This document shows, piece by piece, positions 26,626 to 62,353 of a stretch of DNA of 64,000 bases. How positions within the stretch are numbered: position 1 is the first letter of the stretch; each line of letters begins with the position of its first letter. The position numbers and the translations under genes are program-made. This stretch comes from Bilabrum cf. latius (Eukaryota), in NCBI GenBank assembly GCA_965178125.1, contig OZ237735.1, positions 310,001 through 374,000 of the forward strand, in the 5' to 3' direction. The notes beneath the pieces were generated by a model that worked only from the letters and a program-made list of their open reading frames with translations, was not told the origin of the DNA and made no database searches.

Positions 26626-27065
26626 GGCGCACCACAAGAGTCCTGCCGAGGCTGTTCTATGAGGCGAGCTCCTGGGAGGTTACTCCCTCCTGCAGCCGTA
26701 TACTGTCTGCGTGCAATGACAGGCATCAATTCGGGCTGGACTCGTGGATACAGATGCAAATCACGGCTGTTGCCGTTCGTGCCAGGATCGTCGAGTCACA
26801 AAAAATCCCTCCTAGGACACGGCACGCTCACGCTGTCGCAAGCAGTGAGATAAATACACTAAATTAGATACACTCACGATTGGCTGTGACTCAATGCTTC
26901 GGATTGATCGCGATATGTCTGTTTCTTTGTTGCAATTGTCATCCCATAATACTGGTTTATTTCGGTTTGTACAGTATTGTTTTGATGGTGGACACGGTGC
27001 GTCTCGGCTGACAGGCTAAGGGTGCCTCAATACGCAAGCATGCAGCCACGCATGCTTGGAATACA

Positions 27066-27409
27066 TCACAATACTTTCTCACAAACCACTAGATATGCGT
27101 CGCTGTGCGCTACAGCCCAGGGTCTCGCCCACCCAACGTGCGAGTCGTTGCAATGCCTCCACCGCAGAGGAGGCACCTGCTCGCCCGCTGCACGCCCGCC
27201 GATGTCGCCCGCCCCACCCACGCCAGTCCCCCCACCCGATGCATTCCCCGCACCCTTGCCTGATGCCCGGCCGGTCCCCTATGCCCCTGCCTATGCCCCC
27301 ACGGCGCAGTACGCCGTATAGTGACCGGACTGCAGGCTGGCCCCGTGGTGGCACACCACGGACCTTACCCTGTACCGGGTGCACAACAGGGAATCGGAGC
27401 CATTACTTC

Positions 27410-27481
<72 letters not shown>

Positions 27482-29123: not shown

Positions 29124-29325
29124 CCGGTGATTGGTGTGCAGCAGTGCCAACCACGGGAAGGGCAACCGGAACCGGAACCGAACCACACACACAGTGACAA
29201 CTTAATTGTACAGCAAAGAAGATGATTGATCCGAAGCACTTGCACTGAAAAGTTAGAGAGGCTACCATCTCAGCCGTGGTGCGGCCATACCGCCACTCCA
29301 AAGCCCACCCTAGCACAGCTACCGC

Positions 29326-33502: not shown

Positions 33503-36500
33503 ATGGTGGGATCCAAGTCAAACCAGCAAGGTAAAATCTCGACAGCCGATGACGGAACACTGCTGGAGGCGACGCTGGATTTCTTCCGAGAAGCTACAAA
33601 GCAGCTGATCAGAGAGCTAGTGACAATAGGCAGCAAGATTCTAAATTTTTTTATGCTGAGTATCACCGCATGTATCCTGGCACCGCCCAGATTCTGGAGA
33701 AGGGGCCAGCGAATGTCGAACGCGAACGGTGCCGATCGTCTCGCTGGCAGCAGTCCCACGCAGTCATTGACCGCTGCTCCTTCCAAGAGACTACTTGGCT
33801 TGCCCAATTAGACTCTTGCTTCATCTGGACCCGCTCCTCGATTGCCGGTGGCTCCCACGGAAATCCCGGCTTTGGTGCGAGGTGTAGGCTTGTCCACGCT
33901 GCACGGCCGAAGTGCTGCCGGAAAGGGTCTCTTGGACGAGTTGCAGATGAGCCTGCTTGATGCAGTGGACCAGGGTGCAGATGCTGCGTAGGAACTCGCT
34001 GTGTTCCTACTGGATCACATGTGCTGCGGGCTGTGCTGCGTGCCCAGCAAGCGAAGACGATATCGCGGAGCCACCCGTCGACGACGGAGCCGGCACCGTG
34101 CAAGATCACGTTCTGCCTCCAAATCAAGACAATTGCGCATGGAAACTGAAAATAAACGATCCCGGACCGACGGGCCATCCGGCTGGCTGGCACGCGGGGC
34201 CGGGTGCCTGGTTCGAGTGCCGGGCGTGCTGTGCGGGCTGGGGCTATGGGTCTGCGCCAAGGGGTGCGGGGCATGCTCCCGCTGCGTGGGCCTCCGCTCC
34301 GCTGCGTGGGTGTGGGAGAAGCTCGCCGAGGGGCTGGCCGCCAGCGAGGGCTCTGCAGCGCAGGCCGTGCGCCGTGCCGCAAGGGAGTGTGACGAGCGCG
34401 ACAGGGCCGCAACCCGAGGCGCGAACAGCTCGACGACGACGACGGGCTCTGCACGAGCTGGCGGCGTCAACACCGAAGCTAAAGGCGAGCTGGGTGCAGC
34501 CGCCCCGTTGCCTGGCGGGATCCTCCCCCCGCCTCCCTCCCTGTCGCAGGCAGCGTCCTCCTCCTCCAACGCAGCCTCCTCTGCTCTGGACCTGGACCCA
34601 GGCCACCTGAAGATTAGGGCCTCGGAGGGGTGGGACGTGGGCTTGTCAGCGGCCGCACCTGCGTGGGAACAGCGCGGGAGACAAGAAAGATCCGTCGGCG
34701 GAGAACTCCCCGCGGCACCGCAGGACCTTCTGGGGGAACCCCCGGAGCAGCTGCGGCTGCTTGAGCACGGGTGCGCCGACCCGGTCGGCTCCACGGGGCA
34801 CGAGGCCATGGCTGGGCTCGGCCTGCTGAGCACGCCAAAGGTGCTGCAGCCGGACCCGGTCGGATCCTCTCGCTAGGAGTCTCGCAGGAACGGTAAGCGA
34901 GGCAAGCAGATGAGGGCCAGCGGCTCCAAGGCCAGCCTCTGGGGCCAGGGAACATCGGACACGGAGGGCACGCAGGGGTCTGCCGCCGAGACGGACCCGG
35001 TTGCGGTGCGGCTGCTCAAGAACGTGATGGGCATCCCTGTGCTTACCTATGTGTGCGAGTCGGCCGATGGATACCGGCTGCGCCTGATCCGCATGCCCCG
35101 GCGTGGCTCTAGCCGCGTGGCGTACTTTCAGCACGGCCTGCTGGATTCCAGCTCGGCTTGGGTCTCGGGCGGGAGGGTCTTCGGGATGGGAGTGCGGGCG
35201 TGGCGCGAGGGCTACGACGTGTACCTGGGCAACCTTCGAGGCACAGATGACACGCTGGGTTATGGCGCGCTGGTGAGCAACCACCAAGATGCTGCCGGTA
35301 GCAAGAACAACAACAGCAGCAGCACCAGCAGCAGCAGCGCCAGCGGGGCAGCATCCGCCTCGTCAGCCTCCTCCATCGAAGGAACCTCAACCGCCCGGAG
35401 AAGGCAGCAGCGCAGGAGGCGGCCATCGAGCTCAGCAACCAGCGCGGGCGGCACGGACACCGACCGTCGCAGGGGACCGCCCGTGCCGCCGGGCTCGATG
35501 CTGCGACTCAAGGCCCACCGGTCCCTGGCACCCTCCGACGCGGAGTTCTGGCGGTTCACCGTGGAGGACCACACGCTCGATGTGATGGCGCTGGTGGACC
35601 GGATCGTGGACATCAAGAGGGCCGAGGGGGCGCAGCGGGAGGCGTGGCAGCGCAAGAAAAAGAGAAAGAAGGGTGCCGCTGGTTCCGCTAGTCGGCGCCG
35701 CGACCAGGACCAGGACGCTCACTCACGACTGCCAGGCGGCTCCAAGCTGCGGCCGGATCGTGGCGCCAGCGCCACTTCCGGCGGGGCCAAGTCGCCGGTG
35801 GGCCGCCCAGGCAAGGACGCTGCTTGCGATCCAGGCCGGAGTCAAAGCGCGGCTCCCGACAAGGAAGACTTCTAGGAGGCAGAGGACGTCCGGATCACAG
35901 GGGTGGGTCACTCCATGGGAGGTTGCCTGCTGCTGCTGCACATCCTGCAGTGCAGGGCGCTTGGCCGGCCGCACCACATCAGCCGCTCGATCCTGCTGTC
36001 GCCCGCGGGCATGCACAAGTCCGTCAACGGCTTCGCTTACTTTGCCATCCACGCAGCGTACCCCGTGGTGCATCTGCTGCCCCACGGCCCGTTCATGCGC
36101 GCGCCCCGCGCATTGCAGCGCGTGGTGGCGCGGCTGACCAAGGACTTTGTGGGGCAGCAGGCCACGGCGGACGCTCTCGCCGCGGTGTCTTCGTCTATGT
36201 TCGGCGGCCTGGCGACCCGGTTCGCGTTCCGTGACGTGGTTGACGTCACAGAATACAACGTGGGCGGGACCTCAGTGGGCGTGATGCGGCACGGGTGCCA
36301 AGGGCTCATTGCCCGAGACATCAACGCGTTCGACCACGGCGCGGCGAGGAACAGAGTCAGGTACGGGCAGGACAGCCCCCCGTGCCTGCGAGCAGACTTC
36401 GGGCTGATCGACGTGCCCGTCCACTTCGTGGCTGGCGGGCTGGACGTGCTGATCCCACCGGAGAACATCGAACTCATGGCCACACAGCTGCAGGCCATCC

Positions 36501-37702
36501 GCCCCGGCATTGCGACCTACCACTGTTTCCCCGAGCTGGGACACCTGGACTTCACCCTGTCGCGCGACGATGGCCTCGTCCAGCACGTGCTGCAGCGGCT
36601 CAGGGAGCCAGACCCGGAGGTGAGCGCGACGCAGTGGCTGGCACACAGGCGCTGGCAGGGCAGGCACCCAACGGTGGCGTGTCCCACCACGGGTGACACT
36701 AGACTGGCCACCGTGAGCGACGCACCGGCGCGCCTGGCGCGATACCCCCTGGCCACCGTTGCCGAGGCCCGGGCCCGCGCCGCGAGCTCGCCCAAGCGGC
36801 TGCACCTCCTCGACCCGGACCTGGGCAAGGTCACCCGCGAGTCGGTGACGAGCGCGCAAAAGTACGGCGAGTCGGCGGATGGGCCCTACCAGCGCGCCGC
36901 TGGCATGGCGAGGAGCTTCCCTTTTCTGGGGACGTACATGAAGCTGAGGGAGGCGTGGGAGGGCGTGGATGCTCGGGCTGCCTGGGAGAAGCGCAGGACC
37001 GCGGCGCTGGCACTGGCTCGGGGCAGGGAGAGCGGGTTGCCGGGTGCTGCCGTTGATACAGAGCGCGAGCGTGTTGTATCTGCAAGTGGGCAGGAGCTTC
37101 GAGCTGCCGAGGAGCGCAAGCCGGGGCAGCCCCCGCGGCTGCAGCTCCCCGGATCCAGATCCCCAGCCGGTTCTGATGCTGCCTCCAAGATGGACGACGA
37201 CGGTTCGGGGTAGGAATCGATGCGGGAGCTGGAGGTGCACCGTGGGCCCCAGGCATCTCAAATGAAATCCCGCAGCGGCAGCACAGGCGACAGCAGCTCT
37301 GGGAGCGAATCGGAGGGTGAGAGGCGCAGGGTGGGCGGGGGCGACCTGCCCCTCTCGCCGTCCATGTCCAGGCGCAGCAGTGCTGCCTCGTCTCTTACCA
37401 TGCTTCAGATGCCGGTGCCGGCGGGGGGCAGCGAGGGCGCGGGGAGCAAGGGTGGCGCAGGTGCGACGAGTGGGGGCGCTGGGATGGAGCGGTCGGCGTC
37501 TGGCGGATTCGGCGGGGCTCTGGAGGGGCAGCGGGGTATAACAGGACTCGGGCATGATGCAAGAGACTTGCTCGGCCATGCCGATCGAGCACGAGCCGGG
37601 CGTGCTGGAGCGGGCGCCGTGTCGCCGCTAGACGGGCTGCCTGCCCATGTCGCCAGGAGAGCCGAAGCCAAGAGAAAGGAGCTCCAGCGGCAGCAATTGT
37701 GA
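33503..37702 (+). CDS. Acid-lipase-like alpha/beta hydrolase (~1,400 aa) with long low-complexity inserts
   Basis: DGYRLRLIRMP, QHGLLDSS, GYDVYLGNLRG, FWRF, nucleophile GHSMGG, GHLDF. One frame interrupted only by TAG at 33809, 33989, 34874, 35873 and 37211; ends TGA. Confidence 0.85.
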
Positions 37703-40299: not shown

Positions 40300-43200
40300 G
40301 CATAGTTAAACTGACTGCTCACAATATTCCCAAGATCTCGCAGGACATTCTCGCAAGTACTGATTGTGGTGGCCGCACTCAGTGGTATCAGCGTGAGAGG
40401 GACTCAAGGTCCTAGCCCCTCACCTGTCTCGTTTGGCATCGTGATAGATGGAATGCAAGAGTAGATCTCTCGCACTGAGGGGAGTTTCAATGGGCATCTG
40501 GATTCGTCTGATAATTTTGGAACGTCTTTGGCCCCTCTTGGCGACATGGACAGTGATGGAGTGCCGGAGCTGGCCGTTGGGGCATCTCACGATAATGATG
40601 GGGATCCTGGCAATGACAGAGGAGCCGTGTGGGTGCTATTCCTGCGATCGAATGGCACAGTGAAGGGCCATCAGAAGATCTCCGCCACGGCGGGGGACTT
40701 CGATGGGCAGCTGGATGCTGGTGATCACTTTGGAACCTCAGTAGCCTCAATTGGTGCTATCGATGAGGATGGTGCTCGGGACCTGGCCGTGGGAGCACCA
40801 AATGACGATGACGGTGGCTATGAAATAGGTGCCATATGGGTACTGTTCCTGCGATCAAATGGCACGGTAAAGGGTCATCAGAAGATCTCGGCAACGGAGG
40901 GGGGTTTCGATGGGCACTTGGATGATATTGATCACTTTGGAGTCTCATTGGCCTCTTTGGGCGACATGGACGGGGATGGAGTGTCCGAGCTAGCTGTGGG
41001 GGCGCATGGTGACGATGACGGCGTTCCTGCGAGACCGGAGACGGGAGCTGTATGGGTGCTGTTCCTTCGATCCAATGGCACGGTGAAGGGTCATTAGAAG
41101 ATCTCAGCCATGGCAGGGTATTTCGATGGATAGCTGGATGCTAGTGATCACTTTGGAGTCTCTCTTGCCATTTTGGACGACATGGACGGAAATAGGGTGC
41201 CGGAGCTGGCTGTTGGGGCGTATGCTGACGATGATGGTATTCCTGAGGGATTGAATAGGGGGGCCATATGGGTGCTGTTCTTGCGACCAAATGGCACGGT
41301 GAAAGGTCATCACAAGATTTCCTCCACGGAGGGGGGCTTCAATGGGCAGCTTGATATTGGTGATCATTTCGGTTATTCCGTGACGTCGTTAGGCGACATG
41401 GATGGCGATGGGATACCTGACCTTGCTGTGGGAGCACGGGGTGATGATGGTGTTCCTACGGATTGGAATAGAGGAGCCGTATGGGTGCTGTTTCTTCGGT
41501 CGAATATCACGGTGAAGGGTCATCAGAAGATATCCGCCATGGAGGGCGGCTTCGATGGGCACCTGGATGCTGGCGACTAGTTTGGCGTGTCAGTGGCCGC
41601 AGTGTCCAACATGAGTGGGCCTGGGGCATTGACACTAGCCGTGGGGGCCAACGGGCACGATGGGAGCAGAGGGGCAGTGCACATCCTAGAGTTGCGTGCT
41701 GCTGTCCCCTCGGCCTCGCCCAGCCCGACTCCTTCTCCATCATCCTCTCCAAGTCCAAGTCCTAGTGCGAGTCCCTCCCCTGTCCCGTTCGGTAGCGTGC
41801 TGGTTGGGATGCAGCAGGAGATCTCCGCTACAGAGGGGGGATTCGATGGACACCTTGATGATGCTGATAATTTTGGAACCTCTTTGGCCCCGCTAGGTGA
41901 CATGGACGGCGATGGCGTGCCGGAGCTGGCTGTGGGGGTGCGATTTGACGATGATGGTGCTCCTGGCAATAATCGCGGAGCCGTGTGGGTGCTATTCCTA
42001 CGTTCGAATGGCACAGTGAAAGGTCACCAGAAGATCTCCGCCACGGAGGGGAGCTTCGATGGACAGCTTGATGCTGGTGATCACTTTGGAATCGCAGTAG
42101 CCTCCATGGGTGATATGGATAGCAATGGAGTGTAGGACCTAGCAGTGGGGGCGCCCGATGACGGTGACGGAGCCGTTTGGATACTGTTCCTGCGATCCAA
42201 TGGCACGGTGAAGGGTCATCAGAAGATCTCCGAAACGGAGGGGGGCTTCGATGGGCAGCTTCCTGCTGATTGTGATTTTGCAGTCTCCTTGGCCTCTCTG
42301 GGTGACATGGACGATGATGGCGCGCCTGAGATGGCTGTGGGGGCGTATAGGGACGGTAGTGGAGCTGTGTGGGTGCTATTCCTACGTTCGAATGGCACAG
42401 TGAAAGGTCATCAGAAGATCTCCGCCACGGCAGGAGGCTTTGATGGGCATCTGGATGGAAGTGACTTCTTTGGGTACTCATTGGCCTCGTTGGGCGACTT
42501 GGACGGCGATGGAGTGTACGACATGGCTGTGGGGGCTCACGGTGACGATGACGGCGTTCCTGCGGGATAGAATAGGGGGGTCGTATGGGTGCTGTTCATG
42601 CGATCGAGTGGCACGGTGAAGGGTTCCCAGAAGATCTCGGCCACAACGGGGGGCTTCAATGGGCAGCTTGATGAAAGTGATGTCTTTGGAAATTCGGTCG
42701 CCTCGGTAGGCGACTTGGATGGCGATGGGGTTTCAGACCTGGCCGTGGGGGCGTATGGTGACGATGACGGCATTCCTTCAGGATAGAATAGAGGAGCCGT
42801 ATGGGTGCTGTTCCTGCGATCGAATGGAGCGTTGAAGGGTCACCTAAAGATATCTTCCACGGCTGGGGGATTCAACGGTAACCTAGACCCTGGGGATCTG
42901 TTGAGTTATGGAATGACCGCATTGACACCGATGTGGAGACCTGGAGCAGTGGCATTAGCTGTGGGGGCAATACAAAATGATGATGGGAAAGGTGCCGTCT
43001 ACGTGATTGAACTGCGTGCTGCTGTCCCCTCGGCCTCGCCCAGCCCAACACCGTCCGCATCAACCGCTCCAAGTCGTAGTGCGAGTCCCTCCCCTGTCCC
43101 GTTCGGTAGCGTGCTGGTTGGGATGCAGCAGGAGATCTCCGCTACAGAGGGGGGATTCGATGGACACCTTGATGATGCTGATAATTTTGGAACCTCTTTG

Positions 43201-46200
43201 GCCCCGCTAGGTGACATGGACGGCGATGGCGTGCCGGAGCTGGCTGTGGGGGTGCGATTTGACGATGATGGTGCTCCTGGCAATAATCGCGGAGCCGTGT
43301 GGGTGCTATTCCTACGTTCGAATGGCACAGTGAAAGGTCACCAGAAGATCTCCGCCACAGAGGGGGGCTTCGATGGACAGCTTGATGCTGGTGACCACTT
43401 TGGAATCGCAGTAGCCTCCATGGGTGATATGGATAGCAATGGAGTGTAGGACCTAGCAGTGGGGGCGCCCGATGACGGTGACGGAGCCGTTTGGATGCTG
43501 TTCCTGCGATCCAATGGCACGGTGAAGGGTCATCAGAAGATCTCCGAAACGGAGGGGGGCTTCGATGGGCAGCTTCCTGCTGATTGTGATTTTGCAGTCT
43601 CCTTGGCCTCTCTGGGTGACATGGACGATGATGGCGCGCCTGAGATGGCTGTGGGGGCGTATAGGGACGGTAGTGGAGCTGTGTGGGTGCTGTTTCTTCG
43701 ATCCAATGGCACAGTGAAGGGTCATCAGAAGATCTCCGCCACGGCAGGAGGCTTTGATGGGCATCTGGATGGAAGTGACTTCTTTGGGTACTCATTGGCC
43801 TCGTTGGGCGACTTGGACGGCGATGGAGTGTACGACATGGCTGTGGGGGCTCACGGTGACGATGACGGCGTTCCTGCGGGATAGAATAGGGGGGCCGTAT
43901 GGGTGCTGTTCATGCGATCGAGTGGCACGGTGAAGGGTTCCCAGAAGATCTCGGCCACAACGGGGGGCTTCAATGGGCAGCTTGATGAAAGTGATGTCTT
44001 TGGAAATTCGGTCGCCTCGGTAGGCGACTTGGATGGCGATGGGGTTTCAGACCTGGCCGTGGGGGCGTATGGTGACGATGACGGCATTCCTTCAGGATAG
44101 AATAGAGGAGCCGTATGGGTGCTGTTCCTGCGATCGAATGGAGCGTCGAAGGGTCACCTAAAGATATCTTCCACGGCTGGGGGATTCAACGGTAACCTAG
44201 ACCCTGGGGATCTGTTGAGTTATGGAATGACCGCATTGACACCGATGTGGAGACCTGGAGCAGTGGCATTAGCTGTGGGGGCAATACAAAATGATGATGG
44301 GAAAGGTGCCGTCTACGTGATTGAACTGCGTGCTGCTGTCCCCTCGGCCTCGCCCAGCCCAACACCGTCCGCATCAACCGCTCCAAGTCGTAGTGCGAGT
44401 CCCTCCCCTGTCCCGTTCGGTAGCGTGCTGGTTGGGATGCAGCAGGAGATCTCCGCTACAGAGGGGGGATTCGATGGACACCTTGATGATGCTGATAATT
44501 TTGGAACCTCTTTGGCCCCGCTAGGTGACATGGACGGCGATGGCGTGCCGGAGCTGGCTGTGGGGGTGCGATTTGACGATGATGGTGCTCCTGGCAATAA
44601 TCGCGGAGCCGTGTGGGTGCTATTCCTACGTTCGAATGGCACAGTGAAAGGTCACCAGAAGATCTCCGCCACAGAGGGGGGCTTCGATGGACAGCTTGAT
44701 GCTGGTGACCACTTTGGAATCGCAGTAGCCTCCATGGGTGATATGGATAGCAATGGAGTGTAGGACCTAGCAGTGGGGGCGCCCGATGACGGTGACGGAG
44801 CCGTTTGGATGCTGTTCCTGCGATCCAATGGCACGGTGAAGGGTCATCAGAAGATCTCCGAAACGGAGGGGGGCTTCGATGGGCAGCTTCCTGCTGATTG
44901 TGATTTTGCAGTCTCCTTGGCCTCTCTGGGTGACATGGACGATGATGGCGCGCCTGAGATGGCTGTGGGGGCGTATAGGGACGGTAGTGGAGCTGTGTGG
45001 GTGCTGTTTCTTCGATCCAATGGCACAGTGAAGGGTCATCAGAAGATCTCCGCCACGGCAGGAGGCTTTGATGGGCATCTGGATGGAAGTGACTTCTTTG
45101 GGTACTCATTGGCCTCGTTGGGCGACTTGGACGGAGATGGAGTGTACGACATGGCTGTGGGGGCTCACGGTGACGATGACGGCGTTCCTGCGGGATAGAA
45201 TAGGGGGGCCGTATGGGTGCTGTTCATGCGATCGAGTGGCACGGTGAAGGGTTCCCAGAAGATCTCGGCCACGACGGGGGGCTTCAATGGGCAGCTTGAT
45301 GAAAGTGATGTCTTTGGAAATTCGGTCGCCTCGGTAGGCGACTTGGATGGCGATGGGGTTTCAGACCTGGCCGTGGGGGCGTATGGTGACGATGACGGCA
45401 TTCCTTCAGGATAGAATAGAGGAGCCGTATGGGTGCTGTTCCTGCGATCGAATGGAGCGTCGAAGGGTCACCTAAAGATATCTTCCACGGCTGGGGGATT
45501 CAACGGTAACCTAGACCCTGGGGATCTGTTGAGTTATGGAATGACCGCATTGACACCGATGTGGAGACCTGGAGCAGTGGCATTAGCTGTGGGGGCAATA
45601 CAAAATGATGATGGGAAAGGTGCCGTCTACGTGATTGAACTGCGTGCTGCTGTCCCCTCGGCCTCGCCCAGCCCGTCGGTGACACCTTCCGCATCGACCA
45701 CCCACTCGCCTTCCACGAGTCCATCTATCACTCCGTCTCCATCTCCTACTCCTAGTGCGAGTCCCTCGTCTGGCCCTCTTGGGAGCATGCTACATGGGAT
45801 GCAACAGGAGGTTTCTGCCACTGAGGGGGGCTTCGATGGGCAGCTTGATGCTGGTGACTATTTTGGAGTCTCTGTGACTTCTTTAGGCGACATGGACGGC
45901 GATGGTGTGCCGGACCTAGCTGTCGGTGCTATTGGTGATGATGACGGCATTCCTGCTGATACCGACAGGGGAGCCGTGTGGGTGCTGTTCCTTCGGTCGA
46001 ATGGCACGGTGAAGGGTCATCAGAAGATATCCGCCACGGCGGGGTGCTTTGATGGACAGCTGGATGCAAATGATCAGTTTGGGGCAGCGGTGGCATCTCT
46101 TGGAGATATGGACGGCGATGGAGTGCCGGAGCTGGCAGTAGCAGCCCATTATGACGACGACGGTGTACCTGCAGGAGACAATAGAGGGGCTGTATGGGTG

Positions 46201-49200
46201 CTGTTCCTTCGGTCGAATGGCACGGTGAAGGGTCATCAGAAGATATCGGCTGCAGTGGGGGGCTTGAATGGGCGGCTGAACGCAAATGATAATTTTGGCA
46301 AGCCGGTTGCCACTCTTGGTGATATTGATGGCGATGGAGTGCCTGAAATAGCTGTGGGGGCACACGGTGACGATGACGGTGGGGTATCAGGCTCTAATAG
46401 AGGGGCCGTGTGGGTGCTGTTTCTGCGATCGAATGGCACGGTGAAGGGTCATCAGAAGATCTCCGAAACGGAGGGGGGCTTCGATGGATAGCTTGACACG
46501 TAGGACTATTTTGGCCGCTCTGTGACATGTTTAGGCGACATTGACGGTGATGCGCTTCCGGAACTGGCCGTTGGGGCGGATGGTGATGATGATGGTGGTC
46601 CTGCAGGCAGTGCCAGAGGAGCCGTGTGGGTGTTGTTCCTGCGATGGAATGGCACAGTGAAGGGTCACTAGAAAATCTCCGCTGCGGTGGGCAGCTTCAA
46701 TGGGCAGCTGGATTTAGGTGACGCATTTGGAATCTCTGTAGCCTCACTTGGAGACGTGGATGGAGATGGGGTGCCAGAGTTGGCGGTGGGGGCACACCGT
46801 GACGACGACGGTGTCCCTGCAGGAGACAATAGAGGGGCTGTATGGGTGCTGTTCCTGCGCTCGAACGGCACGGTGAAGGGTCATCAGAAGATCTTCGCTG
46901 CGTCGGGGGGCTTGCAGTTGAATGCAGGCGATCTGTTTGGCGTGTCGATGGCTACTGTGTCCAACATGAGTGGGCCTGGGGCATTGACTCTAGCTGTGGG
47001 GGCCCACGGGCACGATTCGAGCACAGGGGCAGTGCACATCCTAGAGTTGCGTGCTGCTGTGCCCCCGGCCTCGCCCAGCGCATCATTATCGCCCTCACCG
47101 ACACCCTCTGCCAGCCCGAGCACCACTGCCAGCCCGAGCACCACTACCAGCCCGAGCACCACTGCCAGCCCGAGCACCACTACCAGCCCGAGCACCACTG
47201 CCAGCCCGAGCACCACTACCAGCCCGAGCACCACTGCCAGCCCGAGCACCACTGCTACAAGCAGCCCAGCGCCCACAGTGCCATCCGCGCCGGTAAGTCC
47301 CGACTAGTTCCATGAGTTACGTTTAGCGCACTTCCCATCCGATTTCCTTTTATTCCTGCATGATTGTAGCCCTACTCTCTCGCAGGCTCGTCCAGAGCGT
47401 GTCATGTTCCTGGGCCCGACCATCGTGTCGAACATCTCGGATCTTGTACTCCACGAGATCGACAGTGACAATTGCCAGCTGTGCACCGGCTTGCGGGAGG
47501 CCTGGGTACGGAGCTGGCCCGTAGACCGAGGGGGCACCGTCGAGCTCGAAGTACGGCTGCGTGGTGGCGGACTCGCCATCGCCAATTGGACCTCGGGAGC
47601 TGTGAATGTGACCATTGGGGCAGCAACTGCATGCCACAGCCCTCGGATCATTCCGAATACTACGCGCATTGCCACGGCCACTCGCAGTGCCTTGCCATCC
47701 ACGGGCATGTCGATCGCGTGTCGAGCCAGTGTGAGGGAGCTCCAGCTGGAGGCTGCAGAGCTGGCCAAGGGACCGGCCCTTCGATCTATGTGGGGACTGC
47801 TGGCTGAGGATGAATAGACAGCCCATAGTCAGCCGGTGAGTGGCTCTTCGAGCGCACCTGTTTTGGTGCCCTGGAGCGAGTGGGTGCAGGCACTGACATC
47901 TAATGGGGGATCACTGCTGCAGGACGGAGTGGGTAGACAGAAGCTACGGGTGGCAGTGCGGGTGTCAGTGTAGGTGCAGGTGCAGGCCACGGACGGGGGT
48001 CCTCCGCTGGTCGCGTGGTCGAACGCTAGCGACGTGGGCTGGAGGACCGCGGACCCGGGCAACGGCACTGTGGGCCAGCTGTGGGTGTGGCTGCCAGCCC
48101 CCACTGCTGACTTGCTGCAAGCACAAATGCATGCCATGGAACAAGGAGGAAACCCGTCTTTCCACAGGTGGACATTCCCCTCTAATGGTGCCTTGGATCG
48201 GTTGATGCCCCTGCGAAGTGACTCGGATCTGTCAACCGCCGCGGTGATCCTGTCGACGATTACGGGTGGCAGTGGCAGAGACAGTAGCCATGGGCTGTAG
48301 GTGTTCCCGCCCGACGGGTGGGAGGGGGATGTGGATGGCAGCGGTGAGTGGAAATTGGTGGTCCCAATCGGGGCTCGTCCTATTGCAGCAGTGGCAAGCG
48401 ACCTGGTCGGTGGCAGGATTGGCGGAGTCGATAGACTCGTCAAGGGCTGGCCGAATCCGGCTACAGCAGGCGCGTTAGTGGTGCATGAGAACTCCACAGC
48501 TGTGTCGGTCTCCGCACCGAATGTCACTGAGATAGTGGGCTTGCTGCGATCCATGACGGGGCAAGGTGAACCCAGTCCTACACCCCTGCAAACTACATGG
48601 GGAGGCAGAGGGGTGCAGACGAGAGTAGCAGCATCGGTAGATGTGGTGGGATACACAGCCACGGGCCGGTGGGCCCAGCTGGCAAGGTCGCTAGGGAGGT
48701 TGCAGCACCTCGATGCTGCTGGGGTTGGCCCGGGCCGCCAAGATGGGATGTTGAATGTGACGATGGATGGTGAACCAGGGTTGCTGGGGCTGTATGGCGC
48801 CATGGACGAGCAGCTACTGCACAAATGCCTGTGGCCGGATGGAGGGGCGCAGGTAACGACGCAGTTAAGCATCGGTGCAAGCCTGACCTGCCCGGCGGTG
48901 CAGCCGTTGCCCGGCACATCGAGCGAGGTGGAGGCATGCGGGCCCCGAGTGAAGGTCATGACCACAGTGTGCGCAGGTGGTGTGCTCCGGCTAGGCCCCT
49001 TGTCATCCGGCGATGGGCAAGCTCCACTCGGCGAAAGACATTCGATGCACCCACCTACCGCTGCCATGATCGCCGGGACCATTGGCACCAGGGACAGCGC
49101 TGGTGCCTCCCATGCCATCGGGTGGCTTCCGGGATGCATCAACCTGACCATTCTGTTCGGGGAAATGTCAGATCAATTTGATGCAGGCAGTCTCAGCGCA

Positions 49201-52200
49201 AGTTCTGCATCGCGACCCCAGTCCACACTAAACCTGCAGCTGGCACCACCATAGGATAGACCGGCGTGGAGACTCGAGTCGCTCTGGGAGGCAGTGCAAC
49301 AAGGGGCCGAGCTGGGCGTGACAGCCACTGTTCTGGATGGGGAGCATGTCTCAGGGATCAGCGCGACCGCCAGAGTGGTGCGCAAGAGCAGCGTGTCAGT
49401 AGGCCGCCGAGCGACAGAGAGCGGAGGCGCCGATGGGCTGCTGCTGGAGCACTTTGTGTCTCCTCGTCCTGCCCAATCGGCGCTGGAGGATGTCAAGGCC
49501 GTGCTGCGTCAATCGAACTAGCCCGGCAGCCCCAGCCGCCTGACTGCCACCGGTGTCGCTGCTCTGTAGGCGGCTGATGCGCAGAGTGCCGAGGGCAACA
49601 GCGCAGTGTGCGTGGAGGTGGAACTGGGATTCACAGTGATGGGTCAGAGCCAGGGCCAGGGGCCAGGGGCGGGCACGCTTCGGCGCGTGGCCGTGTTCGG
49701 GTCCGTTGGGCCCGGCATCGCTCCGGAGCTGCTTGGCTCACCGGTGGACCTGGCTCTCTCGGAGTGCTCTTCCCTAGGTGCGGTGGCAGGGGGCGAGGGC
49801 GACGAGGGTGTGCAGGTGGCGGTGCTGGAGCCAGTGGCAGATCCCGAGGAGCTGGAGCGACGGATCGAGGAGGGCGGGCTGCATCCGGCGTCCATCAAAG
49901 CATCTTTGCTGGTGGACTCAGTTCCCGAGAGACAGTTTCCAATGGGTGAAAGCGCGCTGATTGCCTCTATGATCCAGGAGACCCGCTTTGGCATAGGCAT
50001 CCCGGCGGCTCCGATCGATGGGGAGGGCGTGATTGTGGCGTGCAAGGCGCACAGTGCTGCAGCCGCACAGGGGGTTGAAGCCACCGGTGCTTCTGACCCC
50101 GGACTGGTGGCGGTGCCGGCTGTGCAGCAGGTCGTTTTGCCTGGGTCTGCGTGGTCTGGCGGGAGAATCCCTGAGATCCAGATCAGGATTCAGCCGTCGA
50201 GGGCAGCGGAATCGGGGGATGCAATGGACCAGGCGCCGAGCGGCGATGGACTATAGACAGTGTGGGTGGTGTGCGTGCTTGCAGGCACAACTGATGCCGA
50301 TGCATCCCAGATAGTCTCCCAGGCTTTGGCAGCAGGTCCTGGATTCCAGCCCTCCGTGGAAGCCATCTCCAGACTCGCTGGCCCTGGCCCTATGGCAACA
50401 TACCAGAGCCCCATCGCAATGGCCATCCCGGTGCGACTGCAACCGGTCCGCTGGCCCAAGCCAGGTGACATCCTGACGAGGCTGCCGGACGCAGTGTGGG
50501 GCACAGAGGCAGACGGTGCGCTGGACTGGAGACCGGCACCAGGGTCTGCGGCTGAGCTGCTAGGGCGGACATCGCGGTACGTGTCGGCGTGGGGGTCAGG
50601 CGCGGGAGCAGGCAGCGATGCTGGAGGGGGATTGGGCGCACCCACCGGGTATCAGAGCAGGGCCAGCAGGCGACTCTTGCATCGACCATCTAGCGGACGC
50701 TAGCTATCGCCTGGTCTAGGTAGGCGACTATCCAATGACTCGGCCGGGCCCGATAGACAGCAGTAGCAGCTGCCGTCGAACGCGTCATCGGAAGAGTTGG
50801 TGCGAGCCAGGCAGGCGGCTCGGTCACCCAACTCGCTCAACCCATGGGCGGGTCCCAAACTGATCGTCAGTGGGGCCGCAGCAGTGACAGTCGCTTGTCC
50901 CCTTGCATACGATGGGGTCTCCAGGGTCCCGTGCCTCCCACCAACCGCGCTGGTGTTCGTGGGTGGGGTGCAAGCCACAATCCTGGATGTGTCTCGAGAG
51001 TTTGACGCGGCGCGGGTGCAGCTGCCCGAGCAGCAGAGCGTGTGCGGTGGACCGCCGGGCCGCAGCAACAGCTCCACAAGTGGACTGGCAGGACAAAATG
51101 AAGCTAGCACAGTGTGCGGCGTGCAGGCTGTGCTGATCGTCCCCCCTCCGCTTCGGACACCAGAGGGCTTCGCACACCCGTCGGTGGAGTGGCCTCCAGT
51201 CCTGGACTTTGATGGCATCGAGCAGACTGAAGGCGCCGGTAATTCTGTGGTTTTTCGCCGACGCGCCCTGCAGCAACTCAACGACACGTCTCCGCCATAT
51301 GCGACCGGCGATCCGCAGCTGGTCCAAGCGGACACTACCACGGCTCGCATTGCCCGTGCACTGTGCGGGAAAGAGGCAATTGTCCGGCAGTGGCGATCCG
51401 CAGGGGGGCGGGCGGCTGCCTCGGGGGGAGAGATACAGGGGTGCGTGCTGGTAGCACCGGCTTCGGTATAGTCAAACGTTGCTGCAAAAGCCCCTTCGGA
51501 GCATGAGGTGATGCACGTGGCAGGAGCAGGGCACGAAGTGCCAGACGGAGACATCGCGGCTCTCGTGTTGAAGGGGGGCATAGAGTACGTAGAGCAATGC
51601 GTGGGGTATCCCGAGCCAGGGGCCCTATGCGCGGATCGAGAGGCAGTGAGGGCGGGTTTAGTCTGCGCTTTTGGTGCGGGTGACGAGTGCAGGGCCTGTC
51701 CCAGCGGTGCGGCGTGCCCCGGTGGATTCAAGGCGCTTCCTTTGCCCGGGTACTGGTCGCAGGAGGAAGACAGTGGGCTCGTACTCAGGTGCGACATGCC
51801 TGCCGAGCAGCGCTGCCTGGGCTGGGATGAGGCCGTGGAGATGTCGATGTGCGGGGTAGGATACAGGCAGGATTCCACCGCGTGTTCCAGGTGCGAAGAC
51901 GGGAGGTATCCTGAGACAGACGGGAGCTGCCAGCTGTGCCCGTCCTCCCCGTCCATCTGGCTGCTGCTTTAGCCTCTTGTTCTCTATGCGGGAGGGGTGG
52001 CCGGGGCAGCGCTTGTGCTGCTGACTGCAGTGTGCGTCGTGGCGCATTGGCGGGGCATTCCATTGAAACTTGCCGCAACTAGAGCTGCCCAATTCACTCT
52101 GTACACCGGTGCTTTGCTGCAGACCGTTGCGCAGGCTGGCAGGGCGGTGCAGCCGGGCCTGCCCCAGTGGTACTACACGGTGGTGCGGATGCTGGACGTG

Positions 52201-54897
52201 TTCCGGTTTGAGAGCTCTGCGCTGGTGCACCCCGACTGCATCGGGGCGGTGAAATTATCGCAGGAGATGCTAGTGCTGAGCCTATCGATCGCTCTCGTCC
52301 TGGGTGGCTATGTCACGTTCTGGTTTGCCGGGCTGCCGATCGAGGTAGAGGTGACTACAGCGAGTGTTCCAGCTCATGACAGCGATGGTAAATCGTCCAG
52401 TAGCGGCGGTCCATCTGGGACTGTAGGTCAAGCGAGTCAGGACGGGACCCAGTATGCGCTGTAGTAGACCACTGCAAGGCGTCGTAGGTCCAGCGCCAGC
52501 GTACTGCTTGCCTCGCTGCAGTCCTCCTCTGGTACACAATCGACCGCATGGACGAATGGTTCAGTCGTTGGTACAAACAGGGATACAGAGCCCGTCAAGA
52601 CTGGGGTTGCGCTGCGTGGTGACGGGTCAACTTCCCTGGGCATCGCCTCTAGAGGGATGCTCACTGCGGCATCGCTCGTGTACGCCGTGGCTTGCACCAC
52701 CGTGGTGCAGGTGCTGGACTGCAGGGCGCCAGGGACGCTGGCGAGTGTGGCCGATCCCGAGGCAGTGCAGTCCGTAGTGCTGCCTGAAGAGGCACTCGGG
52801 CTGGGCAGCAGTGGGGGTGCGGGTGGCAATGGGTCTACTGGACTGGGACCCGGGCCGTAGGATGGCCCGCAGCAGCAGAACGCGACAGACGCAGGGTTGG
52901 AATCGGAGCAGCTGATCGCGCAGGTGCTCGCCACCTATGGGCACTCCCTCGATCTGCGAGAGGATGGGGCCACGCTGCTGCTGTCTGACCCTACCGTGGT
53001 GTGCTACCGTGACGGCGCGCACGTGATCGCCGTCAGTCTGGCGTTGGTGGTCATTCTCGTGGTCATTGTGGGGCTGCCTTTGTACCTGCTGCTGGTGATC
53101 ATCCCGCAGATCGATGCCTCTGTGGCTGCCTCACCGGCCTCGGAGTGGCTCCGATCGACCAAGAGGCTGCTTGAGGCATCTCTGCTGGATCGTGCTAGAC
53201 GGTCGGACGCATCGCGATCGTGCGGCTGCTTGCCTGTATGCGTTGGGTCGCAGTCAGCGTCATCCACGGCAAGCACATCGGGCTCGGGTCCTCTGCAGGT
53301 TGCCCGCAAGAGCACCTCTGGGCCGCGAGCCGTGTGTACCGGGGCTGCGGCTGTTGCAGCTGCTGGGCTGTCCAAATCGGATCGAAGAGACATGAAAGAG
53401 TTTCTGTCGCTGCAGCAGCTCAATCGCAGGTACATGTTAGAGCAGCAGCTCCTGTTTCTAGAGGCGCGAGCACATGAGGCGCTTCGGACGGGGGATCAGC
53501 AGCCCAAGCACTCCGGCACCGTGGGAGCTGCTACGATGCAGCACGGGCGCGGTGGAGGCAGGCGGTCGCGCGAGGGTCCAAAACTTGCTGTTGCCAGCGA
53601 GAAGGTGCGCCGTGGAAGAATCAATCCCAGCTTCCAAGGCAGCAACGCACTGGCGCGTGTGACGACACGCCGGTCCTCCAGCCAGGGAGCCAAGCACTCC
53701 GGCATGCACCAAGGAAACGAGTCCAAGGACAGCGCGGGGAGCTTACTGGCCTCGCATGCAGTAACGCGGGGGCAAGCACGGGCCTCGTCAACAGGCAGAT
53801 CGAACAGACCGAACAGCCAGGGTCCGCGACGGAGGGCCGCGCGTCCGGTGCGGGGAGTCACCGTGTCACCAGCGCTGGCCCGGGAACTGCTCGAGACAGT
53901 GCGGGACCACGCTCGCATCCTGCGGCAGACCCACCGTTTGGCGTATTTTGCGGACGGGGACTATCGCGCTTCCAGGGCGTGGGTGCGGGTGGTGGACTGG
54001 ATGGTGCTGGTGTTAATCGCCAGCCTAGAGCCGCTGCGTGTGCCCCTGGAGCCGGTGCGGGTCATCCTCACCGCATCGCTGCAGGTGACGGTGCTGATGG
54101 CAGCCGCGCTGGTCTTCCAGCTGACGTCTCCGTTCCTGGCAGAGTTCGAATGGAAGAGGGTAGGCAAATTGGGCACGCTGCTGCTGTCCTCGCTGGCGGT
54201 GGCGCTGAACGCCGTGGCGGCACTGAGCCAGGATGCAGCGCTGCAGGCACGGTCTGGGCATCAGCTACAGGACCTTGCCCTGGGTCTCACGTACACGGTG
54301 GGCGCGGGCAGCATCACCTGCCTCTCCGTACTGTTCGTCATGTTCTGGTGGACGATCCTGCAAGCAGATTTGGACCACCCCGAGGCAATCCGCCGCAAGA
54401 TTGAGCTCGAGAGGTGGAACAAGCTGGATGATGATGATGATGACGAGGATGACAGGAACGATCCTACCGCGAGGCCAGCGGGGCAGCAGGCCTGCATCTC
54501 TGCAGCCAACCCAATGCTTGCGGGCAAGTTGGAAGCCAAACGTGGCGGCAGGAGGCGACGCGGATCTACTAGAGACCTCTCGGCAGTGCTGGGCTAGGAC
54601 CAAGCTGGATCGAACGGATGGGCGCAGCTGCGTGCTCTCGTCGGGCAGCGGAGATCCAGTCGGTCCCTGCTTGCGATTTTGGGGGAGGACAAGGACGAGG
54701 ACGGGTTGGAGAACAACCGAGGTTGCACCGGTGCGGGGCGTGGCGGGGCGAAAAGCACCGTGGTGGGGACGAGAAGGATGCGGCAGAACACGATGCTTGC
54801 GATGGACAGTGTGCTCGGAATTGGGCCGGGGGGGTTGTCGAGAGAGCGCATACAGGCTGGAAGCGGCAGAACAAGACGAGGGTGGGCGCTCGGTTGA
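40300..54897 (+). CDS. Giant surface protein (~4,800 aa): 30 FG-GAP (integrin-alpha-like) repeats with S/P/T linkers, long ectodomain, Cys-rich juxtamembrane region and multi-pass TM domain; 5' end uncertain
   Basis: One frame from the TGA at 40297 to the TGA at 54895-54897 with about 30 TAG and no TAA/TGA. FG..LGDMDGDGVPELAVGA motifs. Probable intron 47293-47385. CRACPSGAACPGG..PGYWS Cys-rich region at ~51690-51945 is followed by several hydrophobic segments. A possible first exon starts at ATG 40159. Confidence 0.85.
41690..45675 (+). repeat. Three near-identical 1314-bp tandem units, each encoding a 438-aa FG-GAP module
   Basis: The same ORF pattern recurs at 42805/44119/45433 and 42145/43459/44773 with only a few substitutions. 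Confidence 0.95.
47110..47255 (+). repeat. 18-bp coding minisatellite, (A/T)SPSTT x ~8, mucin-like stalk
   Basis: Tandem gccagcccgagcaccact / accagcccgagcaccact units. Confidence 0.9.
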
Positions 54898-58400: not shown

Positions 58401-58916
58401 CTCGTCAAACAGATCCATGGCTCCCTGGCTCCCATGCGTGCTTGTGGCAGCTGCTCCTGCTTCTGCTTGCCGCCATCGATGCGCGCCGTGCCGCCTCATC
58501 TCCCTCCTCGTCTTCGTCCATGCCACCCTCGCCCCCAATGCCCAGCCCAAGCAGATTCACGATATCACCGGTGTCAGCACAATGCCAGGCACCTCATAGA
58601 GTGGGCGGGGCACGGGGGCTGCCTTGGAGCTGGCGTGCCAGTGTTGGCAGGCGGGTGGGTGTGCTGGCAGCCGCCCACGCCGATGCTCGACAAGTCACCG
58701 CCCGCCACGGCTCCCAGCTCCAGGGCTTGCAGTACAGAGCACTGGCAGTGCCAGTACATGCACAGAGCCAAATGCCTTGAAACGGCCTCGCCCGCCTCCA
58801 GGCTGGCCGGGCAAGCCGCCCCATTGCGAGCCACCCAGCACGCGCGGCCGGAGATCCGCCCGCTTAAGCTTCCGAGAGCATCTGCTGGCCCTGGCAAGCG
58901 CTTGATTGGAGCATAA
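55464..58916 (+). CDS. Secreted parallel beta-helix protein (GH55/pectate-lyase-3-like); native sequence ends at ~58350 and the frame runs on into a transposon
   Basis: Signal peptide. First beta-helix cap LQRAMDWA..LPYGLYVINDTL; second GAMGDYVTDDYPALQAAAD..LLIPRGVYRQSQTL. TAG at 55776, 56868 and 57438. The TAA at 58914-58916 lies inside the element. Confidence 0.7.
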
Positions 58917-59336
58917 TTGGTATTGCTAGTTGGCTTGGTTGATAGTGGTTATCGTTCGGCAGAGTCCCCGACGTTCGCGACGAGTGCTGCCAATGCATTT
59001 GCATGTTTGCGCGATGTAGGAGCTGAGACTCTTCATATTTCGCAGATACTGACCGATATATCAGCAAAATAGCCGTGCCCGAGCCGAAAAAAAGAAAACC
59101 CTAGGCTCGGGCGGAGGGCGCCCCTGCCCGAGCCCAATGCTAGGCTCGGGCGCAGGTGCTTGGCGCCCGAGCCTAACATTCCGCTCGGGCGCGATAGCTG
59201 AAATCGCGGCAAACCCAGTTTAAATATAAAATGATTCGGCTCGGGCAAAGTTGCCTTTTGCCCGAGCCGAAAGTTTGGCTCGGGCAGGGGCGCCCTCCGC
59301 CACAGCCCAAAGTTCCGCTGCGGCGCCAGCGGGGGA
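58351..59336 (-). mobile_element. Truncated, inverted second copy of the 37783-39555 element (one TIR plus ~710 bp of internal sequence)
   Basis: Reverse complement of ~37783-38772; identical 67-aa MLIYRSVSAKY ORF in both copies; TIR at 59062-59336. Confidence 0.9.
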
Positions 59337-59410
59337 CGCGGTGCATCATGATGAGGCATTCTCATAGATATTGGCTTCTCCCGCGCTATTTCCTTGCTTT
59401 CGCACGAAGT

Positions 59411-61988: not shown

Positions 61989-62353
61989 GGAGAGACTGCT
62001 CAGCACACACGGCGCGCGTTGGAACGGTGCTGCTTTGCTCTGGCTGCCTGCCAGCCAAGAGAGGGGCATGCGGTGGGCGAACGAACAGATCCAAGTCGCG
62101 AGAGATGGGATTCGGGGTCGACTAGGATCATGGTGCAGGGCCAGTCATTCGTTTGACTTGCCCTGCAGTGGCTGATGAGGTCGCTGCTGCGTGTGTTTGC
62201 CAGCCCGCTCTCCGATGGAGTGCAAACTCGTCGGGAGCCCTCTGGCGTCGGCCATCGGTTTTGGGATTGGATCAATTAGATCCATTGAATGGCCGAGCCG
62301 CCAATTCGTTTTCGCGATGTCAATCTTAGATTCTGTACCTGGGGCAATCCAGT

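What the first reader, a model, noticed from the sequence alone, without database searches (positions are those of the whole stretch)
41086..46680. Internal repeats decode TAG as glutamine
Seen: paralogous FG-GAP blades swap CAG and TAG at the same column. GGT CAT CAG AAG (GHQK, most blades) appears as GGT CAT TAG AAG at 41095 and GGT CAC TAG AAA at 46669. GAT GGA CAG CTG (DGQL) appears as GAT GGA TAG CTG at 41131 and GGA TAG CTT at 46489. DQFG (46072) appears as D*FG at 41578. CAG CAG TAG CAG at 50758-50769 places TAG inside a Gln run. Inference: TAG and CAG are synonymous here, and this evidence needs no external database.
Basis: seen in the sequence. Interest (0 to 1): 0.85.

Follow-up and report, generated by a model that had tools for sequence, protein, structure and literature searches.

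The report
Nuclear genes read TAG as glutamine
This piece of a GC-rich eukaryotic (protist or algal) genome uses the stop codon TAG as an ordinary glutamine codon while TAA and TGA still end genes, a rare genetic code known from only a few other eukaryotes.

Summary
The frame 40366-54897 has 4843 codons with 32 TAG, no TAA, and one TGA at its end. Eleven coding frames in the window hold 62 TAG, 0 TAA and 0 TGA in 15,246 codons.

Four kinds of evidence point to glutamine:
- **Paralogues:** 4 of 10 independent TAGs in the FG-GAP blades lie in the only two Gln-majority columns.
- **Orthologues:** the TAG in a GH3 glycosidase aligns with Gln in 105 of 120 homologues. The TAG at 51970 aligns with Gln in both homologues found.
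- **Haplotypes:** divergent contigs show TAG>CAG at 51970 and CAG>TAG at 55647.
- **RNA:** a spliced RNA contig keeps a TAG unchanged.

TAA and TGA remain stops. Nine gene ends are TGA 7, TAA 2, TAG 0.

The window is eukaryotic nuclear DNA of undetermined lineage, about 62% GC. This is a UAG-only reassignment to Gln, like NCBI table 15 and Iotanema spirale. The decoding tRNA and eRF1 could not be examined because no genome is held. I rate it a new member of a known kind.

The parts
40366..54897 (+). One uninterrupted coding frame (a single giant exon; its true 5' end was not found) of 4843 codons. It holds 32 in-frame TAG, no TAA, and a terminal TGA at 54895-54897. Its layout is 30 FG-GAP blades, a long unassigned region, a Cys-rich ephrin-receptor-like stretch, and hydrophobic membrane segments.
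   Evidence: Homologues P0123 (70% identity) and P0124 (28%) cover residues about 3715-4290. The atlas places P0123 near Ephrin_rec_like clusters.
40408..47052 (+). 30 FG-GAP blades in 5 modules of 6, separated by Ser/Pro-rich linkers. They hold 16 TAG, of which 10 are independent.
   Evidence: Blade alignment; codon table.
41740..45690 (+). Three tandem copies of a 1314-bp unit (modules 2-4). After position 41762, copies 1 and 2 differ at 12 sites, 9 of them third codon positions. Copies 2 and 3 differ at 2 sites, both third positions.
41095..41097 (+). TAG in the GHQK column. The second case is at 46669-46671.
   Evidence: the column holds Q 13, E 1, H 1, L 1 in 18 independent blades, plus these 2 TAG.
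41131..41133 (+). TAG in the DGQL column. The second case is at 46489-46491.
   Evidence: the column holds Q 9, H 5, N 1, R 1, plus these 2 TAG.
51970..51972 (+). TAG at residue 3869 (IWLLL-X-PLVLYAGG), at the start of the first membrane segment.
   Evidence: Gln in P0123 and in P0124. Read as CAG in 2 divergent contigs of run X1.
50764..50766 (+). TAG inside CAG CAG TAG CAG.
29326..31506 (-). Main exon of a GH3 glycosidase. It has one TAG at 30142-30144 (residue 455) in the conserved L-P-x-x-Q-x-x-L motif, and ends in TAA at 29326-29328.
31559..32038 (-). Frame that holds the upstream GH3 exon (CxxLKGxxxDWTL ... GIPAY), with a TAG at 31748-31750 in a variable column.
59231..61988 (+). GH31 glycosidase gene with a GT..AG intron at 60484-60607. 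Once spliced it gives one 877-codon frame with a single TAG (59708-59710) and a terminal TGA.
13774..26637 (-). Armadillo-repeat giant frame of 4287 codons with 16 TAG, no TAA, and a terminal TGA.
55464..58403 (+). Secreted protein with a pectate-lyase-like domain. It has 3 TAG (55776, 56868, 57438). The CAG at 55647 is read as TAG in a divergent contig of X1.
33503..37702 (+). Acid-lipase-like alpha/beta hydrolase frame of 1399 codons with 5 TAG and a terminal TGA.
27066..29192 (-). Ubiquitin C-terminal hydrolase (UCH/USP) frame with 2 TAG in a Gly/Ala-rich insert and a terminal TGA.

Best explanation
The window is nuclear DNA of a GC-rich eukaryote whose cytoplasmic translation reads UAG as glutamine in all genes, with UGA (the main one) and UAA still acting as stops.

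Shown here:
- TAG is frequent inside long, conserved, transcribed frames.
- Where the aligned position is conserved, the residue is Gln.
- TAG and CAG replace each other between paralogues and between haplotypes.
- TAA and TGA never occur in frame and do close genes.

Inferred from what is established for other UAG-only codes (PMC5304391 section 9; PMC11687900 introduction):
- Decoding is by a tRNA-Gln with anticodon CUA, derived from tRNA-Gln(CUG). This anticodon pairs with UAG but not UAA.
- An eRF1 recognises UAG poorly but still recognises UAA and UGA.

Decoding must be efficient, because one frame carries 32 TAGs. TAG makes up about 9.5% of Gln codons in the window. The FG-GAP gene is only the place where internal paralogy makes the code visible.
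For: **Frames**
- Under table 11 the FG-GAP region breaks into ORFs of at most 352 aa. With TAG as sense it becomes one 4843-aa ORF.
- Eleven frames of 15,246 codons hold TAG 62, TAA 0, TGA 0. The two other reading frames of the same DNA hold 204, 73 and 546.

**Paralogues**
- 4 of 10 independent blade TAGs fall in the only 2 Gln-majority columns, p about 1e-4.
- Gln scores best among the residues.

**Orthologues**
- The GH3 TAG column holds Q 105, E 13, A 2 of 120 homologues, and the nearest homologue (71-74% identity) has Q.
- All 4 printed PDB alignments show Q.
- The TAG at 51970 aligns with Q in 2 of 2 homologues.

**Haplotypes**
- 40 differences were displayed out of 518.
- 2 are TAG/CAG exchanges, one in each direction, and no other change touches a TAG.
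- 27 of the 40 are synonymous if TAG is Gln.
- Tandem copies differ mostly at third codon positions, 11 of 14.

**RNA**
- Contigs of X5, X6 and X7 lack the 124-nt GT..AG intron that X1 keeps.
- The spliced X5 contig covers the TAG at 59708 with 0 differences.

**Stops**
- Nine gene ends are TGA 7, TAA 2, TAG 0.
- GH3 ends at TAA within 2 residues of where its three nearest homologues end.
- About 9.9 in-frame TAA would be expected if TAA:TAG followed CAA:CAG. None is seen.

**Context**
- 56 distinct TAG contexts show all four bases at the following position, and TAGs are spread along the genes. This argues against a special readthrough context.
Against: - The decoding machinery was not seen. 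There is no tRNA and no Rfam family in the window, and no genome is held.
- Only 64 kb was examined.
- Six of the ten independent blade TAGs lie in uninformative or non-Gln columns, one of them a Lys/Glu column.
- The upstream GH3 exon TAG column is variable: A 7, Q 5, R 4, T 3, and six other residues once each, of 25.
- The double TAG at residues 4033-4034 faces Pro and Leu in P0123, in a stretch that barely aligns.
- A 94% identical database protein (P0278) ends just before a Ser codon (TCG) of the window, which I cannot explain without its DNA.
- The zero counts of TAA and TGA are partly built in, because frames were delimited by those codons.
- The tool labels run X5 'RNA? (probably DNA)'. 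Contigs over the intron-less FG-GAP exon therefore cannot be proven to come from RNA.
Confidence: 0.9

Rival explanations
1. TAG is ambiguous. It is read as Gln inside genes but also ends some genes, depending on context, as in Condylostoma or karyorelict ciliates.
For: Only 9 gene ends could be judged, so TAG terminators elsewhere in the genome cannot be excluded. Such codes exist (listing and abstract of 10.1101/2022.04.12.488043).
Against: 0 of 9 gene ends use TAG. TAGs occur up to 98% of the way along the FG-GAP frame and in varied contexts.
Confidence: 0.06
2. Both TAA and TAG mean Gln (NCBI table 6, as in ulvophyte algae, hexamitid diplomonads and many ciliates), and TAA is merely rare because the genome is GC-rich.
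For: Table 6 is the commonest variant code in eukaryotes (PMC11687900 introduction). TAA is rare in the window in any frame: 170 and 168 occurrences on the two strands.
Against: There are 0 in-frame TAA in 15,246 codons, against about 9.9 expected from the CAA:CAG ratio. The GH3 protein ends at TAA where its three nearest homologues end. Another gene also ends at TAA.
Confidence: 0.03
3. TAG is a sense codon for a residue other than Gln: Ser as reported for Scotinosphaera, Leu as in the rhizarian exLh, or Glu, Tyr, Lys or Trp.
For: One blade TAG sits in a Lys/Glu column. The GH3 column has Glu in 13 of 120 homologues. P0278 ends before a Ser codon. One weak alignment puts Trp opposite the GH31 TAG, with domain E-value 7.6.
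Against: Ser, Leu, Tyr, Lys and Trp are absent from the GH3 column. Log-likelihoods on the blades are Q 0.94, N -4.8, H -5.3, Y -8.8, L -11.0, S -13.9, E -16.0. The only haplotype changes seen at TAG are to or from CAG.
Confidence: 0.03
4. The TAGs are nonsense mutations (C-to-T decay of CAG) in dead or dying repeat-rich genes, or they are removed from the message by splicing or editing.
For: CAG>TAG is a common transition, and repeats are prone to decay.
Against: Decay would also create TAA and TGA, and none is in frame in 15,246 codons. TAGs also occur in single-copy conserved genes. Differences between haplotypes and between tandem copies are mostly synonymous. A spliced RNA contig keeps its TAG unchanged.
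Confidence: 0.01

Closest known systems
UAG-only reassignment to glutamine with UAA and UGA kept as stops: NCBI translation table 15; Iotanema spirale (Fornicata), Protocruzia tuzeti and two phyllopharyngean ciliate lineages
   Same: TAG is a sense codon aligned with Gln. TAA is not a sense codon and still ends genes. This matches the code described in the abstract and section 9 of PMC5304391, and in the passages of PMC11687900 read.
   Different: - This genome is about 62% GC. Phyllopharyngean genomes are given as 27.4-53.6% GC (PMC11687900).
- TGA, not TAA, is the main stop here: 7 of 9 gene ends. UAA is the primary stop in I. spirale and in those ciliates.
- The intron seen is a 124-nt GT..AG intron.
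- The lineage is undetermined, so descent from one of these groups is neither shown nor formally excluded.
UAA+UAG to Gln (NCBI table 6: many ciliates, hexamitid diplomonads, dasycladalean, cladophoralean and trentepohlialean green algae)
   Same: TAG is read as Gln. It is probably decoded by a mutated tRNA-Gln.
   Different: TAA is a stop here, so a UUA-anticodon suppressor is not expected.
Other UAG-only nuclear codes: rhizarian exLh (Leu); Scotinosphaera (Ser, known to me only from one sentence of PMC11687900)
   Same: UAG is uncoupled from UAA.
   Different: The residue is Gln here, not Leu or Ser.
TAG-to-Gln recoded bacteriophages (code 15; crAss-like, Lak and others)
   Same: The codon and the residue are the same.
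   Different: Those are phage genomes with their own suppressor tRNAs. This window is eukaryotic nuclear DNA with a spliceosomal intron and UCH, RING-SAP and radial-spoke cyclophilin genes.

Membership tests
UAG-only Gln nuclear code (table 15 type) | In-frame TAG is frequent in conserved, expressed protein-coding genes | tested here: met
   62 TAG in 15,246 codons of 11 frames. Genes with Pfam domains carry them. A spliced RNA contig carries one.
UAG-only Gln nuclear code (table 15 type) | TAG aligns with glutamine at conserved positions | tested here: met
   GH3 column: Q in 105 of 120. Position 51970: Q in 2 of 2. Blade columns: Q 13 of 16 and Q 9 of 16 among non-TAG residues. Haplotype TAG/CAG exchanges. 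Several other TAG sites are uninformative.
UAG-only Gln nuclear code (table 15 type) | UAA is not a sense codon and still terminates genes | tested here: met
   0 in-frame TAA against about 9.9 expected. GH3 ends at TAA where its homologues end. 2 of 9 gene ends are TAA. This rests on the window only.
UAG-only Gln nuclear code (table 15 type) | UGA remains a stop | tested here: met
   0 in-frame TGA. 7 of 9 gene ends are TGA. The UCH frame ends 8 residues after the end of its Pfam match, at TGA.
UAG-only Gln nuclear code (table 15 type) | TAG is not used as a terminator | tested here: inconclusive
   0 of 9 gene ends. The sample is too small to exclude context-dependent use.
UAG-only Gln nuclear code (table 15 type) | A tRNA-Gln with anticodon CUA is present | not testable with these tools
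   No tRNA in the window. No whole genome is held.
UAG-only Gln nuclear code (table 15 type) | eRF1 is altered in its stop-codon recognition motifs | not testable with these tools
   There is no eRF1 gene in the window and no genome is held.
FG-GAP repeat proteins (Pfam PF01839) | Repeated FG-GAP units recognised by the family model | tested here: met
   PF01839 E 1.4e-115 with 19 stretches; PF14312 and PF13517 also match. 30 units were aligned. The fold was not predicted.

The most novel reading that the evidence does not exclude
An independent and so far undescribed origin of the UAG-to-Gln code, with UAA and UGA kept as stops, in a GC-rich eukaryote that is neither a ciliate nor a metamonad. 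The atlas gives a faint lead to haptophyte-like gene families.

The code may be shared by a clade. Two database relatives at 61-70% identity have predicted proteins that stop exactly where the window has Gln, one of them at the Gln shared by all three sequences that cover the cyclophilin NASQF motif.

A reassignment of UAG in a genome where GC pressure should favour TAG as a codon would not fit the usual account that AT pressure first drives the codon to rarity.
Probability: 0.45. Interest if true: 0.75.

Novelty: new member of a known kind. Interest (0 to 1): 0.6.

Why it matters
- **Rarity.** Nuclear codes in which UAG and UAA mean different things are few. The passages I read name a rhizarian, Iotanema, Scotinosphaera, Protocruzia and some phyllopharyngean and other ciliates. 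Each new case tests whether the two codons are mechanistically coupled.
- **Unusual background.** This case has about 62% GC, with TGA as the main stop. That background differs from the mostly AT-rich ciliate cases, so it bears on codon-capture versus ambiguous-intermediate models.
- **Practical effect.** Gene callers using the standard code would cut this organism's genes into pieces. The FG-GAP gene falls into fragments of at most 352 aa. Database proteins of its relatives look truncated in the same way.
- **Method.** Internal repeats of a single gene can reveal a codon's meaning without any database.

Tried and rejected
**Whole genome.** None is held, so tRNA-Gln(CUA), eRF1 and a genome-wide tally were out of reach.

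**Earlier findings of this scan.** There is nothing on this genome or on look-alike stretches. The word search returned only recoded phages, which I did not use.

**Metagenome scan with a GH3 alignment.** 80 loci were kept, the best at 36% identity. No close relative was found, and I did not analyse the loci further.

**Lineage**
- The UCH search against representatives, followed by a cluster look-up, gave names driven by low-complexity matches (avocado, pocket gopher, frog, pigeon). These say nothing about lineage.
- The atlas placed the cyclophilin near chordate PPIL6 clusters.
- The atlas placed P0123 near Ephrin_rec_like clusters whose few labelled members are mostly haptophytes.
- The best named full-length match of the cyclophilin is radial spoke protein 12 of Tribonema minus, at 34%.
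- The green-algal TGTAA signal follows only 2 of 9 genes.
- None of this places the organism.

**PDB searches**
- The lipase TAG lies in an insert that is not aligned.
- The GH31 N-terminal TAG is covered only by a non-significant alignment.
- The pectate-lyase-like protein has no hit.

**Sequencing runs**
- No listed holder is on record as RNA.
- Parts of the stretch without contig cover were not interpreted.

**Literature.** Six searches found no report of a GC-rich non-ciliate eukaryote with UAG as Gln other than Iotanema. Subscription journals and supplements were not searchable. The additional files of PMC5304391 (eRF1 alignment, tRNA table) and the supplements of PMC11687900 were not seen and may list further lineages.

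**Not attempted.** I predicted no structure of a blade module and no complex.


Full report
**What is there**

With TAG read as sense it becomes one frame, 40366-54897, of 4843 codons with 32 TAG. Its codon counts are TAG 32, TAA 0, TGA 1 (the terminator), CAG 136 and CAA 32.

Other frames in the window behave the same way:
- An armadillo-repeat giant, 13774-26637 on the minus strand: 4287 codons, 16 TAG.
- An acid-lipase-like gene: 5 TAG.
- A pectate-lyase-like secreted protein: 3 TAG.
- A UCH: 2 TAG.
- A RING-SAP protein: 2 TAG.
- A GH3 glycosidase: 1 TAG in its main exon and 1 in an upstream exon.
- A GH31 glycosidase: 1 TAG.

Eleven frames totalling 15,246 codons hold 62 TAG and no TAA or TGA. 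The two other reading frames of the same DNA hold 204 TAG, 73 TAA and 546 TGA. From those off-frame densities, the chance of the two giant frames being open is about 1e-65 and 1e-25.

Every quoted string is at its stated place. The protein has exactly 30 FG-GAP blades, in five modules of six. Pfam FG-GAP scores E 1.4e-115.

Modules 2-4 are three tandem 1314-bp copies. Copies 1 and 2 differ at 12 sites, and copies 2 and 3 at 2 sites. Eleven of these 14 differences are at third codon positions. I therefore counted 18 independent blades and 10 independent TAGs.

The TAG-holding columns over the 18 blades are:
- GHQK column: Q 13, E 1, H 1, L 1, plus 2 TAG.
- DGQL column: Q 9, H 5, N 1, R 1, plus 2 TAG.
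- The next column: K 15, E 2, plus 1 TAG.
- A G/S column: 1 TAG.
- The D-x-FG column: H 5, N 3, Y 2, L 2, and Q, D, F, V, A once each, plus 1 TAG.
- A P-rich column: P 10, plus 1 TAG.
- A variable loop column: 2 TAG.

Only two of the 81 alignment columns are Gln-majority, and 4 of the 10 TAGs sit in them (p between 7e-5 and 1.7e-4). A simple column log-likelihood ranks Gln first at 0.94. Asn follows at -4.8, His at -5.3, Tyr at -8.8, Leu at -11.0, Ser at -13.9 and Glu at -16.0.

**Independent evidence for glutamine**

*Orthologues.*
- The TAG at 30142-30144 in GH3 lies in the conserved L-P-x-x-Q-x-x-L motif.
- In the four PDB alignments printed, the aligned residue is Q each time.
- In a MAFFT alignment of the 120 listed homologues it is Q in 105, E in 13 and A in 2. 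The nearest homologue (P0003, 71-74% identity) has Q. The next two (53-58% identity) have A.
- The TAG at 51970 (residue 3869 of the FG-GAP protein) faces Q in the only two homologues found, P0123 at 70% identity and P0124 at 28%.

*Less informative sites.*
- The upstream GH3 exon TAG is in a variable column: A 7, Q 5, R 4, T 3, and six other residues once each, of 25.
- The double TAG at residues 4033-4034 faces P and L in P0123, in a stretch that barely aligns.
- The lipase and GH31 N-terminal TAGs are not covered by significant alignments.

*Haplotypes.*
- Run X1 holds contigs 90-99% like the window.
- 40 of the 518 differences were displayed. 24 are at third codon positions.
- 27 are synonymous if TAG is Gln, and 13 change the residue.
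- Two are TAG>CAG (51970) and CAG>TAG (55647). No other displayed change touches a TAG.
- The other 478 differences were not shown to me.

**Transcription**

Contigs of runs X5, X6 and X7 join 60483 to 60608, skipping 124 nt with GT..AG ends. The X1 contig is continuous there. These three runs therefore hold RNA-derived sequence, although the tool only guesses their kind and labels X5 'probably DNA'.

Splicing gives one 877-codon GH31 frame with a single TAG at 59708 and a terminal TGA. The spliced X5 contig covers that TAG with no differences. X7 and X6 contigs cover the three TAGs of the neighbouring gene. X5 contigs cover 47400-55018 of the FG-GAP gene without a difference. That part has no intron, so the RNA origin of those particular contigs is not proven.

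**TAA and TGA**

Nine gene ends are TGA 7, TAA 2 and TAG 0. GH3 ends at TAA within two residues of where its three nearest homologues end. If TAA were a Gln codon used in the CAA:CAG proportion (0.16), about 9.9 in-frame TAA would be expected, and none is seen. This zero is partly built in, because frames were delimited by TAA and TGA. The two giant frames, both closed by TGA, carry most of the weight.

**What kind of genome**

- The window has a spliceosomal intron, a UCH, a RING-SAP protein, and a radial-spoke-type cyclophilin. It also has sulfatase, ricin-lectin, PAN, GH3 and GH31 domains, Ser/Pro-rich linkers and homopolymer tracts, at 56-68% GC. This is eukaryotic nuclear DNA.
- I could not place the lineage (see Tried and rejected).
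- The nearest database proteins are unnamed.
- Two of them end exactly where the window has Gln. P0123 ends before CAG at residue 4135. P0279 ends before the CAA in the cyclophilin NASQF motif, where all three sequences that cover the position have Gln.
- That fits relatives that also read TAG as Gln and were truncated by standard-code gene calling. I could not see their DNA.
- P0278 (94% identity) ends before a TCG Ser codon, which I cannot explain.

**Mechanism**

*Shown:* TAG is decoded in varied sequence contexts all along genes. It must be decoded efficiently, since one protein needs 32 such events.

*Inferred:* The argument of PMC5304391 (section 9) and PMC11687900 (introduction) is that only a CUA anticodon reads UAG while ignoring UAA. 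I therefore expect a tRNA-Gln(CUA) derived from tRNA-Gln(CUG), an eRF1 with weakened UAG recognition, and possibly an adapted glutaminyl-tRNA synthetase. None of this could be tested: no tRNA or Rfam family is in the window and no genome is held.

**Comparison and novelty**

The code matches NCBI table 15. It is also the code described for Iotanema spirale (abstract and section 9 of PMC5304391) and, according to the passages of PMC11687900 that I read, for Protocruzia tuzeti and two phyllopharyngean ciliate lineages.

It differs from those cases in GC content, in using TGA rather than TAA as the main stop, and probably in lineage. It is not table 6, because TAA is a stop. It is not the Leu or Ser variants either.

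Six literature searches found no description of such an organism. The depositors of the 2025 runs may well know of it.

**Verdict:** a real, well-supported UAG-to-Gln reassignment and a new member of a known, rare kind.

Noticed in passing
window 41740-45690: Three tandem 1314-bp copies, each encoding a six-blade FG-GAP module plus linker. Copies 2 and 3 differ at only 2 bases, so this is either a very recent duplication or a possible assembly collapse or expansion.
   Followed up: partly
window 39450-39608 and 59231-59350: Nearly identical ORF starts (MIRLGQSCLLPEPKVWLG...) at two places 20 kb apart, which points to a dispersed repeat. Depth in X1 spikes at 59034-59587 (1223) and at 54602-55155 (1461). 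The real GH31 start is probably the downstream Met with a signal-peptide-like stretch.
   Followed up: no
window 60484-60607: A 124-nt GT..AG intron in the GH31 gene (GTGAGT ... pyrimidine tract ... CAG). It is removed in contigs of three runs and kept in the DNA run.
   Followed up: yes
window 47400-64000 (run X1): The best DNA holder contains many contigs 90-99% like the window (199 at 99% or more, 89 at 95-99%, 89 at 90-95%). This suggests divergent haplotypes, paralogues or several strains in one run.
   Followed up: partly
window 62900-62975 (cyclophilin gene, minus strand): A 94% identical database protein (P0278) ends just before the window's TCG Ser codon after ...IIELFHD. It also has a different, longer N-terminus. 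Unexplained.
   Followed up: partly
window 40001-48000: The FG-GAP repeat region has lower GC (0.557-0.584) and a strong positive GC skew (0.16-0.22) compared with its neighbours (GC 0.62-0.68).
   Followed up: no
window 47108-47255: An 18-nt tandem repeat, 8.2 copies at 95% match, encoding the Ser/Thr/Pro/Ala linker after the last blade module.
   Followed up: no
window 52235-52693 and 52725-53917: Contigs of both DNA and RNA-type runs skip 414-450 nt, and 1174-1191 nt in X5 only. The ends are not intron-like, so these are probably length variants in a low-complexity part of the FG-GAP gene.
   Followed up: no
window 47829-49151 (minus strand) and other long antisense ORFs: Long ORFs lie antisense to the real genes, for example one of 440 aa without TAG. 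They look like by-products of high GC content. None had a Pfam match among those tested.
   Followed up: partly
window 29192-29326: The GH3 stop codon and the first ATG of the UCH frame downstream on the same strand are only about 130 nt apart, so spacing between genes is compact here.
   Followed up: no
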